A stretch of 28,522 nucleotides of DNA from a virus (IMGVR_UViG_2529292923_000024); one strand, 5' to 3'. Positions 11,234 through 17,786 are shown, numbered from the stretch's first letter. Numbers and translations are program-made. The notes: generated by a model from the letters alone, not told the origin.

Positions 11234-13255
<2,022 letters not shown>

Positions 13256-14421: not shown

Positions 14422-15231
14422 ATGAATAATCTGATGGTCATTGATGGTATTGAAGTTCGTCGTGATGCTTATGGGCGTTACAGCCTGAACGATCTGCATC
14501 GCGCAGCAGTAGCATCTGGTGCAAATGCCAGAACCAAGGAGCCAGGAAAGTTTCTTTCCAGCCAACAAACTGTTGAGCTTGTTCATGAATTAACCAACAC
14601 CCAGAATTTGGGTGTTGACCCGGTGAGTGTGATTCATGGGGGAAATGAACGGGGAACGTATGTCTGTAAGGAACTGGTGTATGCCTATGCAATGTGGATC
14701 AGCCCGTCATTCCATCTGAAGGTGATCCGTACTTTCGATATGGTAACCAGCGCGCCGGAAAAGTTATCCGGACAGGCTGCTGACAAGATGCAGGCTGGCG
14801 TGATCCTGCTGGACTTTATGCGCCGGGAGTTAAATCTGTCTAACTCTTCAGTGCTTGGTGCCTGTCAGAAACTCCAGGAGGCTGTTGGCTTACCGAATCT
14901 GGCACCGCGCTATGCCATTGATGCTCCTGCTGACGCGCCTGATGGCTCAAGCCGCCCGACACTGTCACTGAGTGCACTGCTGAAGCAGTATGGTATCCGC
15001 CTGACAGCTAATCAGGCATATCACCAGATGGCGAAGCTGGGGATCGTTGAACAACGTGAACGATACAGCCGTACCGCGATTAACAACATCAAAAAATTCT
15101 GGTCGCTGACGGCGAAAGGCTGCATGTTCGGCAAGAACATCACCAGTCCCGCAAATCCGCGCGAGACGCAGCCGCATTTCTTCGAATCCCGATTCCCTGA
15201 GCTGTTAAAGCTACTCGATACCGTTCATTGA
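14422..15231 (+). CDS. KilA-N domain protein (antirepressor-like)
   Basis: 269 aa; N-terminal KilA-N-type segment (LMVIDGIEVRRDAYGRYSLNDLHRAA); good RBS. Confidence 0.6.
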   Translation: MNNLMVIDGIEVRRDAYGRYSLNDLHRAAVASGANARTKEPGKFLSSQQTVELVHELTNTQNLGVDPVSVIHGGNERGTYVCKELVYAYAMWISPSFHLKVIRTFDMVTSAPEKLSGQAADKMQAGVILLDFMRRELNLSNSSVLGACQKLQEAVGLPNLAPRYAIDAPADAPDGSSRPTLSLSALLKQYGIRLTANQAYHQMAKLGIVEQRERYSRTAINNIKKFWSLTAKGCMFGKNITSPANPRETQPHFFESRFPELLKLLDTVH

Positions 15232-15326
15232 GGTGACCGTGAGAGCACTACTGACCCCTGAAATTGCCCCGCGTATGGGGATCGTATTGTTCAGGCCAGG
15301 TTCAGAGCTGATGCCCCTGTTTATGC

Positions 15327-16876
15327 CTGTCTCTTATACACAAATCCCCACCCGGGGATTTGTGATGTCTGTCAGTCTGCTTTAGGGGGACTCTTTCCAT
15401 CCGGTAGTTTCCTTCCTCCCCGGCAGCGATTTTTTGAACTTTTTCCTCACCCGTTGATCTTCTCTTATATTTCATTTTCTTCGGGTCTGTTATGGTACTT
15501 TCTGATTGTTATTCATGGGCTAACGAGCAGTTTTGACATGCCCGTCTCGGTGATCCGCGTCGTACACGACGCCTTGTGTCACTGGCCTCTTCTCTCGCTC
15601 AGCATGCAGGTCTTTCTATTGTGAAATCATCCCAGTCCACTGCTCAGGTTGAAGGTGCGTACCGCCTGATACGTAACCCGTCTGTGTCCCCGCAAGCCAT
15701 TGCCGAAGCCGGATTTACCGCCACTGTAAGGGCATGTGAGGCTCATCCGCTGCTCCTCGCGCTGGAAGACACCACCACCATTAACTTCAGTCACAGTACG
15801 GCATCTGATGACCTGGGGAATACCACCACTAACCCGAAGACGCGCGGGCTGCTGGCTCACTCTGTCCTGATGTACGCCCCCGACAGCGCCCTGCCAGTCG
15901 GTCTTATCGAACAGCAGCGCTGGAGTCGTGCCACGGACACCTACGGTGTTAAGCACCAGCGAAAAGAACGTCCCTATGAAGAAAAAGAAAGTTACCGCTG
16001 GCAGCAGGCTTCGGAGCGCATGGCCGAACGGCTGGGGGAGATACAGAAACGGGTAATCACTGTCTGTGACCGGGAAGCGGATATCTGGCATTACCTGCAT
16101 TATAAAGTCAGCCACGGGCAGCGCTTCGTGGTGCGTGCAGCACAGAATCGCCGGCTGGAAGAAGCACCCGGCAAGCTCTTCGAACTGCCGGAAGTCCTGG
16201 CAACCGCGGGAAGCCACACGCTGAATGTGATGCAAAAAGGCGGGCGGGCAGCCCGCCAGGCCCGGATGTTCATCAGTTACAGCGAAGTCAGCATAAAAAA
16301 TCCCGACAACAGCGGCCAGGCGCTCCCGCTCACGTATGTCTGTTGCCGGGAGCAGGCAGAGGACGGCGCCTGCTGGCATCTGCTGACGTCAGAAAAAGTG
16401 GCGAGTGCCGCCGATGCGCGACGTATCGTCAGCCATTACGAGCGACGCTGGCTGATAGAGGAATACCACAAGGCGTGGAAAAGTGGTGGTACATGTGTGG
16501 AATCGCTGCGAATGCAGACCCGGGATAACCTCGAGCGCATGGTGGTTATCAAGGCGTTTATCGCGGTGCGGGTGCTGGGCCTGCGGCAGGGCGGTATCAG
16601 TGAAGAAACACAAAATGACAGCTGTGAGAAAATACTGACGCCGACAGAGTGGAAACTGCTGTGGGTTAAGCTGGAAGGAAAACCGCTTCCGTCACAGATG
16701 CCGACACTGAAATGGGCCTGTCTGAAACTGGCGAAACTGGGGCGATGGCATGACAGCAAACGCACCGGTCGCCCCGGTTGGGTAGTCATGTGGGATGGCT
16801 GGTTCAGACTTCAGGATATGGTTGAGGGTTACCTGGTGATGAAGTCTCTTGATCAGGAGATCTGATCAAGAGACAG
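15327..16876 (+). mobile_element. IS4-family (IS50/Tn5-like) insertion sequence, 1550 bp, flanked by 8-bp direct repeat GTTTATGC
   Basis: Left end CTGTCTCTTATACACAAAT (Tn5 outside-end-like), right end AGATCTGATCAAGAGACAG (Tn5 inside-end-like); transposase stop lies within the right end as in IS50; direct repeats at 15319-15326 and 16877-16884. Confidence 0.85.
15492..16865 (+). pseudogene. IS50-like (Tn5 Tnp family) transposase with an in-frame TGA at codon 15
   Basis: ATG 15492, then 14 codons, then TGA 15534-15536, with the frame continuing into the 429-aa ORF (GTG 15576 to 16865); aligns with recalled Tn5 Tnp throughout (GDPRRT, EGAYRLIRNP, DREADI, YERRWLIEEYHKAWK, DSKRTG). Confidence 0.75.
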
Positions 16877-16880
16877 GTTT

Positions 16881-17786
16881 ATGCAGGGGCGTGTCCTGCT
16901 GGAGCCAGAGCCGGAACGTTATTCATCTTTCGCCAGTGGTGCCGTTCCGGCGGCATCACAACCGCTGGCGGATGATCCTGCCGTTCGGACCGTGTTCCGC
17001 AATGAGGCAGTGATCCGTCGTGCTGGTGGCGTGGAATGTCTTGAAAGCTGGTTACTTCGTGAAAAAGGTTGCCAGTGGCCTCATTCCGACTGGCACAGCG
17101 AGAACATGACCACAATGCGACACACGCCGGGCGCAATCCGTCTGTGCTGGCACTGCGATAACCAGCTGCGCGATCAGTTCACGGAACGGCTGGAATCAAT
17201 GGCAACGGATAACTGTACCCGCTGGGTGTTGTCTGTTGTGCGTCGGGATCTCGGTTTTGATGACAGTCACGTTGTGACAATGCCGGAACTGTGCTGGTGG
17301 CTGATTCGTAATGACCTGGCGGATGCCTTACCGGAAAGTGCAGCCCGTAAGGCACTGAGATTACCGAAGCCTGTTGTGCCGTCTGTCACCCGGGAAAGTG
17401 ACCTTGTGCCTTCGGTTCCTGCCACCAGCATCATCCAGGATAAAGCGAAAAAGGTGCTGGCGCTGAAAGTGGATCCGGAGTCGCCGGAGTCTTTTATGTT
17501 ACGCCCAAAACGTCGCCGCTGGGTTAATGAAAAGTACACGCGCTGGGTTAAGACACAGCCGTGTGCATGTTGTGGAAAGCCCGCTGATGATCCCCACCAC
17601 CTGATAGGCCACGGTCAGTGTGGAATGGGTACAAAAGCGCATGACCTTTTTGTGTTGCCTTTGTGCAGAAAGCATCACGACGAGCTGCATGCGGATACCG
17701 TGGCATTTGAAGAGAAGTATGGCTCTCAGCTGGAGCTGATATTTCGTTTTATCGATCGTGCGCTGGCAATTGGCGTACTGGCGTAA
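16881..17786 (+). CDS. DUF968-family protein with C-terminal HNH-like Cys/His motif; 5' end displaced by the IS50-like insertion
   Basis: 301-aa ORF beginning at the ATG inside the right direct-repeat copy; 29 in-frame codons with a GAGGTG RBS and GTG start lie at 15239-15325 left of the IS, so the native gene was about 329 codons. Confidence 0.6.
   Translation: MQGRVLLEPEPERYSSFASGAVPAASQPLADDPAVRTVFRNEAVIRRAGGVECLESWLLREKGCQWPHSDWHSENMTTMRHTPGAIRLCWHCDNQLRDQFTERLESMATDNCTRWVLSVVRRDLGFDDSHVVTMPELCWWLIRNDLADALPESAARKALRLPKPVVPSVTRESDLVPSVPATSIIQDKAKKVLALKVDPESPESFMLRPKRRRWVNEKYTRWVKTQPCACCGKPADDPHHLIGHGQCGMGTKAHDLFVLPLCRKHHDELHADTVAFEEKYGSQLELIFRFIDRALAIGVLA

What the first reader, a model, noticed from the sequence alone, without database searches (positions are those of the whole stretch)
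15492..15578. In-frame UGA at codon 15 of the IS50-like transposase
The transposase frame runs ATG(15492) ... CAG TTT TGA(15534) CAT GCC CGT CTC GGT GAT CCG ... and aligns on both sides of the stop with the Tn5 Tnp N-terminus as I recall it (MITSALHRAADWAKSVFSSAALGDPRRT versus MVLSDCYSWANEQF*HARLGDPRRT); the stop replaces a Ser codon. The element otherwise looks intact, with ends and target duplication. The options are a recent nonsense mutation, low-level UGA readthrough (UGA followed by C is the leakiest context in E. coli) limiting transposase supply, or re-initiation at GTG 15576 giving an N-terminally truncated, inhibitor-like protein.
Basis: partly seen in the sequence, partly recalled or inferred. 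Interest (0 to 1): 0.45.

Follow-up and report, generated by a model that had tools for sequence, protein, structure and literature searches.

The report
Nonsense-mutated copy of insertion sequence ISEc13
One copy of a known jumping gene (ISEc13, a Tn5/IS50 relative) inside a prophage has a single G-to-T change that turns codon 15 of its transposase into a stop; this is ordinary decay inherited in one EPEC sub-lineage, not a programmed recoding signal.

Summary
The in-frame TGA is real (15534-15536, codon 15 of the frame starting at ATG 15492). The element is ISEc13 (IS4 family, IS50-like), window 15327-16876. It differs from a canonical intact copy by exactly one base, 15534 T instead of G, so the ancestral codon is GGA (Gly15). 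Ser is only the residue Tn5 has at the aligned position.

A test specific for the T allele found it in 0 of 5,426 complete E. coli genomes, where the G allele occurs at 1,690 places. It was also absent from the plasmid, GTDB-representative, JGI-metagenome and IMG/VR collections.

It is unlikely to be a one-off sequencing error. The same prophage insertion carries T in three draft assemblies (AIEV01000061, which matches the window 100%; AFJB; 2362-75). It carries G in four sister assemblies, one of which differs from the window only at this base over 5.9 kb.

The best reading is a recent, vertically inherited loss-of-function SNP. The stop lies inside the N-terminal DNA-binding domain. GTG 15576 has no Shine-Dalgarno sequence, and a product started there would lack the conserved GDPRRT motif.

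UGA-C readthrough and re-initiation remain possible side effects, but nothing in the sequence supports them. Draft assemblies also show T in ISEc13 copies at other sites. That is partly an artefact of assembling repeats, and at least one case looks real.

The parts
15327..16876 (+). ISEc13 insertion sequence (IS4 family, IS50-like), 1550 bp
   Evidence: 99.9-100% identical to copies RefSeq annotates as 'IS4-like element ISEc13 family'. Only 15534 differs from the B19374 copy.
15327..15345 (+). Left terminal inverted repeat (like the Tn5 outside end): CTGTCTCTTATACACAAAT
   Evidence: 17/19 to the Tn5 outside end, with the first 9 nt identical to the right end (Tn5 end sequences recalled from memory).
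16858..16876 (-). Right terminal inverted repeat, CTGTCTCTTGATCAGATCT on the reverse strand
   Evidence: 19/19 to the Tn5 inside end (recalled sequence). It overlaps the last codons of the transposase gene.
15319..15326 (.). Left copy of the 8-bp target duplication GTTTATGC
   Evidence: uninterrupted prophages L016/L018/L019 read ...CCCCTGTTTATGCAGGGG..., which equals the two window flanks joined with one 8-bp copy removed.
16877..16884 (.). Right copy of the 8-bp target duplication GTTTATGC
15492..16865 (+). Transposase reading frame (457 codons plus stop in intact copies), here a pseudogene
   Evidence: Catalytic-site motifs are conserved in the Tn5 alignment (EDTT, CDREAD, Y..R..E......K).
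15534..15536 (+). Premature TGA (codon 15). 15534 is T here and G (GGA, Gly) in other copies. The next base is C.
   Evidence: The T allele has 0 hits and the G allele 1,690 places in 5,426 complete genomes.
15576..16865 (+). Longest residual ORF (GTG, codon 29, 429 aa). It keeps only the C-terminal 35 of the 58 DNA-binding-domain profile positions.
   Evidence: No Shine-Dalgarno sequence. A hairpin at about 15556-15572 lies just upstream.

Best explanation
This is an ISEc13 copy inserted in the DUF968 gene of a lambdoid prophage. After insertion it acquired a single G-to-T transversion (15534) that changes Gly15 (GGA) to UGA.

Translation from ATG 15492 stops after 14 residues, inside the N-terminal DNA-binding domain. 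This copy therefore no longer makes a transposase able to bind its own ends. It is a non-autonomous, decaying copy whose ends are still intact.

The allele is inherited vertically in a sub-clade of the EPEC lineage that includes strain 2362-75 and the DECA-collection strains. Any trace of full-length protein by Trp misreading of UGA-C, or of N-terminally truncated protein by restart, would be an unselected by-product.

Shown: the mutation, its derived state, its rarity, its inheritance at the orthologous site, and its position within the domain. Inferred: loss of transposase activity.
For: The window copy differs from an intact copy at one base in 1550. All five compared copies, including ones 2-3% diverged, have GGA.

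I used a 55-mer query in which every 28-nt seed word spans 15534. The T version has 0 hits in 5,426 complete E. coli genomes. The G version, as positive control, hits 1,690 places in 1,443 genomes. T also has 0 hits in PLSDB plasmids, GTDB species representatives, JGI metagenomes and IMG/VR.

The same prophage insertion, with identical junctions, exists in other assemblies.
- UFZD01000005 (a 5.1-Mb contig) differs from the window by only this base over 5,906 nt and encodes the 457-aa protein.
- AIEX and AIFA also have G.
- ADUL01000048 of strain 2362-75 has G too, but its left flank is foreign, so that contig looks chimeric.
- T is present at this junction in AIEV01000061 (100% identical to the window over 20,147 nt), AFJB01000040 and ADUL01000044 of strain 2362-75.
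- The last two contigs stop inside the IS, at positions 727 and 324, as expected for extension from the unique flank.

Pfam Tnp_DNA_bind spans residues 8-65, and the most conserved motif shared with Tn5 (LGDPRRT, residues 19-25) lies between the stop and GTG 15576. [quoted passage not shown] 1993 as quoted in PMC5036114).

Defective ISEc13 copies are common. One of four copies sampled from complete genomes is annotated 'internal stop', and a 1-nt deletion allele segregates in the same lineage.
Against: No expression or activity data exist, so loss of function is inferred from Tn5.

The T allele also appears in ISEc13 copies at other sites in draft assemblies. One of these lies 26 nt from a unique junction with an IS66-family element in the same genome as the window. 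A purely dead copy does not predict this unless gene conversion, mobilisation in trans, or misassignment of repeats during assembly is invoked.

A Logan contig from an unrelated IS haplotype and insertion site also carries T.
Confidence: 0.78

Rival explanations
1. Sequencing or assembly error: the true base at 15534 in this copy is G, and the T comes from a miscall or from another IS copy written into this site when the repeat was assembled.
For: The source is a draft assembly. In the assemblies that carry T, every retrieved ISEc13 copy is 100% identical. That includes copies at the mog and zntA sites, which are G in the finished E2348/69 genome. This pattern is what repeat collapse or arbitrary path choice would produce. 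A long-read-sized contig of a sister strain has G at this site.
Against: T is found at this same junction in three assemblies, including two whose contigs end inside the IS close to the junction. The T allele is absent from thousands of other assemblies, so it is not a systematic error. The position is 208 nt from the unique left flank, within reach of read pairs.
Confidence: 0.07
2. Attenuated but autonomous element: UGA-C is read through by tRNA-Trp at a low rate. This gives a little full-length G15W transposase, so the stop acts as a throttle on transposase supply.
For: UGA followed by C is a documented weak termination context in bacteria (PMC5289835). Position 15 is not conserved between ISEc13 (Gly) and Tn5 (Ser), so a substitution might be tolerated. 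T-bearing copies appear at several sites, two of which are absent from all complete genomes.
Against: The stop is a rare derived allele, not conserved in any other copy. No downstream structure or known recoding motif is present. Natural E. coli isolates carry the more active RF2 variant, with which extended readthrough products disappear in K-12 swaps (PMC5373646). Trp at a Gly/Ser position of the DNA-binding domain is untested. A premature stop at codon 15 should also expose the mRNA to polarity (inference).
Confidence: 0.08
3. Inhibitor-producing copy: ribosomes restart at GTG 15576 (or GTG 15621) and make a transposase that cannot bind DNA but can still dimerise. Like the Tn5 inhibitor, it would poison transposase made by the intact copies.
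For: An open 429-aa frame follows the stop 39 nt downstream and keeps the catalytic and Tn5-type dimerisation domains. The Tn5 inhibitor works this way (PMC5036114). Restarts after early nonsense codons are known in E. coli (lacI; my own knowledge).
Against: GTG 15576 has no Shine-Dalgarno pairing (dG +0.4 against a window mean of -2.4), and GTG 15621 is only average (-3.2). A hairpin occupies 15556-15572. ISEc13 has no Met at the position of the Tn5 inhibitor start (Q52). The nearest start after the stop is an out-of-frame ATG at 15538. No data show that a protein lacking residues 1-28 is stable or inhibitory.
Confidence: 0.05
4. The nonsense allele has spread among copies, either by mobilisation in trans by intact copies or by gene conversion. 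It would then be a multi-copy variant in this lineage rather than a lesion private to the prophage copy.
For: IS copies with T that are 100% identical to the window sit at the mog-satP, ppnP-rdgC, zntA-tusA, periplasmic-binding-protein/ABC and ibs sites. Each has its own 8-9-bp duplication, across assemblies AIEV, AFJB, AIEZ, AIFC and AIFD. In AIEV01000018 the T is 26 nt from a unique IS66-family junction, so it is directly linked to a copy other than the prophage one.
Against: The mog and zntA insertions are ancestral and carry G in finished E2348/69 genomes. The T-free sister strain AIEX differs from the window by only this base and one homopolymer indel in 10.7 kb, which leaves very little time for many conversions. 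The look-up that found these copies is biased toward truncated gene calls. In strain 2362-75 the 429-aa product is annotated on a single contig.
Confidence: 0.3

Closest known systems
ISEc13 (IS4 family, IS50 group), canonical transposase WP_000244358.1
   Same: 1549 of 1550 nt identical, with the same ends, the same gene layout and an 8-9-bp target duplication.
   Different: Codon 15 is TGA instead of GGA, so the 457-aa protein cannot be made by standard decoding.
IS50 / Tn5 transposase (Tnp) and its inhibitor (Inh)
   Same: Homologous over essentially the full length (E=6e-84). The N-terminal DNA-binding, catalytic and dimerisation domains are shared. The right end matches the Tn5 inside end 19/19. 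A truncated product would resemble the inhibitor in lacking DNA-binding residues.
   Different: ISEc13 has Gln where Tn5 has Met56, so there is no built-in inhibitor start. The truncation here would come from a mutation, not from a dedicated promoter and start codon. The duplication at this site is 8 bp, whereas Tn5 makes 9 bp (my own knowledge).
UGA-C recoding sites such as prfB (CUU UGA C)
   Same: The mutation creates UUU UGA C, a weak RF2 context formally like the prfB shift site (PMC5289835).
   Different: There is no upstream Shine-Dalgarno stimulator. A +1 shift enters a frame that ends at 15622-15624 and does not restore the transposase. The site is not conserved in other copies.
Other decayed ISEc13 copies
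   Same: Single-lesion pseudogenes with intact ends. Examples are the 'internal stop' copy in strain KC-Dl-1 and the 1-nt deletion in the A5 run at 15978-15982 in NCTC and AIFB assemblies.
   Different: The lesion is in a different position. This one is the most N-terminal of the three and leaves a long downstream ORF.

Membership tests
ISEc13 (IS4 family, IS50 group) | Near-identical nucleotide sequence to annotated ISEc13 elements over the full length | tested here: met
   99.4-99.9% identity over 97-99% of the query in many genomes. One difference in 1550 nt from L001.
ISEc13 (IS4 family, IS50 group) | Terminal inverted repeats of the Tn5 outside-end/inside-end type, flanked by a short target duplication | tested here: met
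   (ends; 8-bp duplication verified against empty sites). (8-9 bp at eleven other sites).
ISEc13 (IS4 family, IS50 group) | DDE transposase homologous to Tn5 Tnp with conserved catalytic motifs | tested here: met
   PDB search E=6e-84. The EDTT, CDREAD and YxxRxxxExxxxxxK motifs align (residue roles recalled from memory). Pfam DDE_Tnp_1 and Dimer_Tnp_Tn5 hit.
ISEc13 (IS4 family, IS50 group) | Uninterrupted 457-codon transposase ORF (needed for an autonomous copy) | tested here: not met
   TGA at codon 15.
Tn5-type inhibitor (Inh) regulation | In-frame internal Met start at the end of the DNA-binding domain (Tn5 M56) | tested here: not met
   Tn5 M56 aligns to ISEc13 Q52. The first in-frame ATG is codon 127.
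Programmed stop-codon readthrough | The stop codon is conserved among functional copies and relatives | tested here: not met
   0 T alleles against 1,690 G alleles in complete genomes. Diverged copies have GGA.
Programmed stop-codon readthrough | A stimulatory downstream RNA structure or motif | tested here: not met
   The fold of 15525-15600 has z=-0.94 against shuffles. No Rfam hit at E<=1 in 15200-17000.
Programmed stop-codon readthrough | Measurable readthrough yielding full-length protein | not testable with these tools
   Needs a reporter assay or proteomics.
Selenocysteine UGA | A SECIS hairpin immediately 3' of the UGA | tested here: not met
   No Rfam SECIS match and no significant structure. 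The ancestral codon is Gly.

The most novel reading that the evidence does not exclude
The codon-15 UGA allele may not be a dead end. T-bearing ISEc13 copies may have multiplied in this EPEC sub-lineage, at the prophage site, in the copy interrupted by an IS66-family element, and at up to five other sites. That would mean either that the stop is bypassed often enough (Trp readthrough at UUU-UGA-C, or restart) for the element to stay mobile, or that this Tn5-like IS is mobilised in trans or homogenised by gene conversion far more readily than the cis-acting Tn5 paradigm suggests.
Probability: 0.12. Interest if true: 0.45.

Novelty: already known. Interest (0 to 1): 0.15.

Why it matters
Mostly it matters for annotation. 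This gene should be called a pseudogene (internal stop) of ISEc13, not a 429-aa or 281-aa 'transposase' as in some GenBank records of the same allele.

The SNP is a clean lineage marker for a sub-clade of the 2362-75/DECA EPEC group.

If the multi-copy distribution of the allele proved real, it would give a natural system for asking how a Tn5-like element with a cis-acting transposase propagates a nonsense-bearing copy. The present evidence for that comes from draft assemblies and is weak.

Tried and rejected
- **Selenocysteine or structured recoding signal:** no SECIS or other Rfam hit, and the fold is not better than shuffles.
- **+1 frameshift at the newly created UUU UGA C:** the +1 frame ends at 15622-15624 and cannot restore the transposase.
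- **A wrong start codon, with the real start downstream of the TGA:** rejected because homology to Tn5 and the Pfam DNA-binding domain begin upstream of the stop (residues 6-8), and RefSeq uses ATG 15492.
- **Systematic sequencing error at this motif:** rejected because the allele is absent from thousands of other assemblies. The exact 429-aa product occurs on only two other contigs.
- **The 2362-75 contig with T beside an IS66-family transposase (L005) as proof of a second site:** downgraded. The same assembly has a short contig with T anchored to the prophage flank (L045) and a chimeric-looking contig at the DUF968 gene side (L010).
- **The Logan contig L006 (T on a different IS haplotype at the DUF6056 gene site, where a complete genome has G):** could be a recurrent mutation or a mosaic graph path in a mixed sample. 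The contig number 67531 suggests a complex sample, so this is unresolved.
- **Look-ups that failed:** The DECA genome announcement and the 1993 Tn5 inhibitor paper are not held in the library.

Full report
**What is at the coordinates**

Reading the window and translating the frame gives ATG 15492, then MVLSDCYSWANEQF, then TGA at 15534-15536 followed by C. The same frame continues HARLGDPRRTRRLV... to a stop at 16863-16865. The longest ORF after the stop begins at GTG 15576 (429 aa).

**What the element is**

A megablast of 15300-16900 against 5,426 complete E. coli genomes hits thousands of places annotated 'IS4-like element ISEc13 family transposase'.

In intact copies RefSeq places the CDS 166 nt from the left end, 1374 nt long, encoding 457 aa (WP_000244358.1). 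That maps exactly onto window 15492-16865.

The element is 15327-16876 (1550 bp).
- Its right end matches the Tn5 inside end 19/19 and its left end matches the Tn5 outside end 17/19 (the Tn5 end sequences are from my memory).
- It is flanked by GTTTATGC on both sides.
- Uninterrupted prophages read ...CCCCTGTTTATGCAGGGG..., which is the two window flanks joined minus one 8-bp copy. The target duplication is therefore real and 8 bp long.

The protein is a clear Tn5 transposase homologue (PDB phmmer E=6e-84, residues 6-453 against Tn5 9-469). Its Pfam domains are Tnp_DNA_bind (8-65), DDE_Tnp_1 and Dimer_Tnp_Tn5.

Within ISEc13, however, the codon is GGA (Gly) in every other copy examined, including copies 2-3% diverged.

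**The lesion is one derived base**

The window element differs from the copy in strain B19374 at a single position in 1550: 15534 is T rather than G.

To count alleles I used a 55-nt query centred on 15534, so that every 28-nt megablast seed word spans that base.
- The T version finds nothing in the 5,426 complete genomes.
- The G version, as positive control, finds 1,690 places in 1,443 genomes.
- The T pattern is also absent from PLSDB plasmids, GTDB species representatives (the G pattern finds two), JGI metagenomes and IMG/VR.

**It is inherited, not a one-off error**

The window is 100% identical over 20,147 nt to AIEV01000061.1 (GCA_000249055.2). AIEV is the first accession of the DECA diarrheagenic E. 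coli collection.

The same insertion, between a KilA-N gene and a DUF968 gene of a lambdoid prophage, is present in several related assemblies.

| Allele at the prophage site | Assembly | Notes |
|---|---|---|
| G | UFZD01000005 (5.1-Mb contig) | Identical to the window over 5,906 nt except at 15534; encodes the intact 457-aa protein |
| G | AIEX, AIFA | |
| G | ADUL01000048 (strain 2362-75) | Left flank is foreign, so the contig looks chimeric |
| T | AIEV | Matches the window |
| T | AFJB01000040 | Contig runs from the unique flank and stops at IS position 727 |
| T | ADUL01000044 (strain 2362-75) | Contig stops at IS position 324; strain name |

Contigs that break off inside the repeat look like extension by flank-anchored reads. 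I therefore take T at this site as real in those strains. This is an inference, since I could not see reads.

The closest G-type relative (AIEX) differs from the window in 10.7 kb only at 15534 and at one homopolymer indel. The mutation is therefore very recent.

**Consequence**

The stop falls at residue 15 of a DNA-binding domain that spans residues 8-65. The motif best conserved with Tn5 (LGDPRRT, residues 19-25) lies between the stop and GTG 15576. A product started at that GTG would keep only profile positions 24-58 of 58.

The natural Tn5 inhibitor lacks the first 55 residues. It has no DNA-binding activity and interferes with the transposase by complex formation (de la Cruz et al. 1993 as quoted in PMC5036114).

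I therefore infer that this copy cannot supply a transposase that recognises its ends. Because both ends are intact, it could still be moved by transposase from the many intact copies in the same genome.

**Readthrough**

The literature agrees that a C at the +4 position, especially after UGA, terminates poorly in bacteria (PMC5289835).

Several points argue against a programmed event.
- The stop is not conserved.
- No significant structure follows it (z=-0.94).
- No Rfam family matches.
- In K-12 strains given the B-type RF2, which is more active than the K-12 variant, extended readthrough products of test genes disappear (PMC5373646). That natural isolates generally carry the more active form is my own knowledge.

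Readthrough is thus possible only at an incidental, low level.

**Re-initiation**

GTG 15576 lies 39 nt after the stop but has no Shine-Dalgarno pairing (dG +0.4 kcal/mol; window mean -2.4, 5th percentile -6.6). GTG 15621 is average at -3.2. A small hairpin (about 15556-15572) sits directly upstream of GTG 15576.

ISEc13 has Gln where Tn5 has Met56, the inhibitor start, and the first in-frame ATG is codon 127.

The mutation formally creates UUU UGA C, a prfB-like shift motif. A +1 shift, however, enters a frame that closes at 15622-15624.

**An unexpected complication**

I looked up the truncated products that annotators called on this allele (429 aa from GTG 15576; 281 aa from ATG 16020). This returned T-bearing ISEc13 copies, 100% identical to the window element, at other sites in DECA assemblies.
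- The sites are mog-satP, ppnP-rdgC, zntA-tusA, a periplasmic-binding-protein/ABC locus and an ibs locus.
- Each has its own 8-9-bp duplication.

Two of these insertions (mog, zntA) are shared with the finished E2348/69 genome, where they carry G. Given how little the strains differ, T at those ancestral sites is most simply explained by repeat sequence being assigned to the wrong copy in draft assemblies.

The look-up itself is also biased toward truncated calls.

One case is harder to dismiss. In AIEV01000018, the end of an IS66-family element (...GAGTCGCTTAC) abuts ISEc13 position 182, and the T lies 26 nt from that unique junction. The ppnP-rdgC and ABC-locus insertions are absent from all complete genomes.

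At least two T copies therefore probably exist in the window's genome. The allele would then have been copied once, by transposition in trans or by gene conversion.

A Logan contig (SRR24987651) carries T on a different IS haplotype, at a site where a complete genome has G. This may be a recurrent mutation or a mosaic path in a mixed sample.

None of this changes the main verdict. It is the basis for the 'novel case'.

**Comparison with known systems, and verdict**

The element is a member of ISEc13 by sequence, ends, duplication and catalytic motifs. It fails only the 'intact ORF' criterion.

It does not meet the criteria for programmed readthrough, selenocysteine insertion or a Tn5-type inhibitor arrangement (see the membership table).

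Defective ISEc13 copies are commonplace. One of four copies I pulled from complete genomes is annotated 'internal stop'. A 1-nt deletion allele in the A5 run at 15978-15982 occurs in the same lineage.

The finding is a correctly observed but ordinary pseudogenising SNP in a known insertion sequence. It is of low interest, with a modest residual question about whether the allele has spread among copies.

Noticed in passing
window 15310-15326 / 16877-16893; also L001, L003, L030, L032, L034-L036: Every ISEc13 insertion examined sits in a short GC palindrome of the form CCCC(N)-[8-9 bp duplicated]-(N)GGGG, for example CCCCT|GTTTATGC|AGGGG here. This suggests a hairpin- or terminator-like target preference. 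The duplication is 8 bp at some sites and 9 bp at others.
   Followed up: partly
window 15239-15326 and 16881-17786: The IS splits the phage DUF968 gene (329 aa in uninterrupted prophages L016/L018/L019) after codon 29. The 301-aa remnant ORF starts at the ATG that lies inside the right copy of the target duplication.
   Followed up: partly
window 11234-13186 (C run at 12828-12832): A second IS, of the IS21 family (istA 11320-12342, istB from 12339), is inserted in the phage dam gene and is absent from the AIFA relative. Its istB has C5 where AFJB, AIEX and 2362-75 have C6. That gives a frameshift, which could be real or a homopolymer error.
   Followed up: partly
window 15327-15345: The left end CTGTCTCTTATACACAAAT matches the Nextera/Tn5 mosaic end at 17/19 positions, with the first 16 identical (mosaic-end sequence from memory). 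Adapter trimmers could clip reads at this IS end. Stand-alone contigs of 1551-1552 bp holding just this IS occur in draft genomes (L007, L008).
   Followed up: no
L031/L047 (CABEEY010000003, mog site) and L038/L053 (AIFB01000049, IS66 site); window equivalent 15978-15982: A second defective ISEc13 allele occurs in the same lineage: loss of one A from the A5 run, which splits the transposase into 187-aa and 281-aa ORFs. It is found with G at 15534. In AIFB a second copy on the same contig lacks the deletion.
   Followed up: partly
L033 1440-1500 (AIEV01000018.1): The end of an IS66-family element is inserted into an ISEc13 copy at IS position 181/182. Reciprocally, an ISEc13 sits inside an IS66-family element between its tnpB and transposase genes (L005, L038). 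These are nested IS insertions in this lineage.
   Followed up: partly
L010 (ADUL01000048.1) and L037/L052 (AIFC01000024.1): Two ISEc13 copies have non-matching flanks: a ferredoxin-gene flank on the left with the DUF968 gene on the right, and a copy with no target duplication at agp/rcnB. These are either IS-mediated rearrangements or chimeric joins in draft assemblies.
   Followed up: no
window 15538-15624: An out-of-frame ATG sits directly after the new stop (TGACATG). It opens a 28-codon ORF whose TGA (15622-15624) overlaps the in-frame GTG 15621 (GTGA). This start-stop overlap could in principle couple translation back into the transposase frame. The arrangement also exists in wild-type copies.
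   Followed up: no
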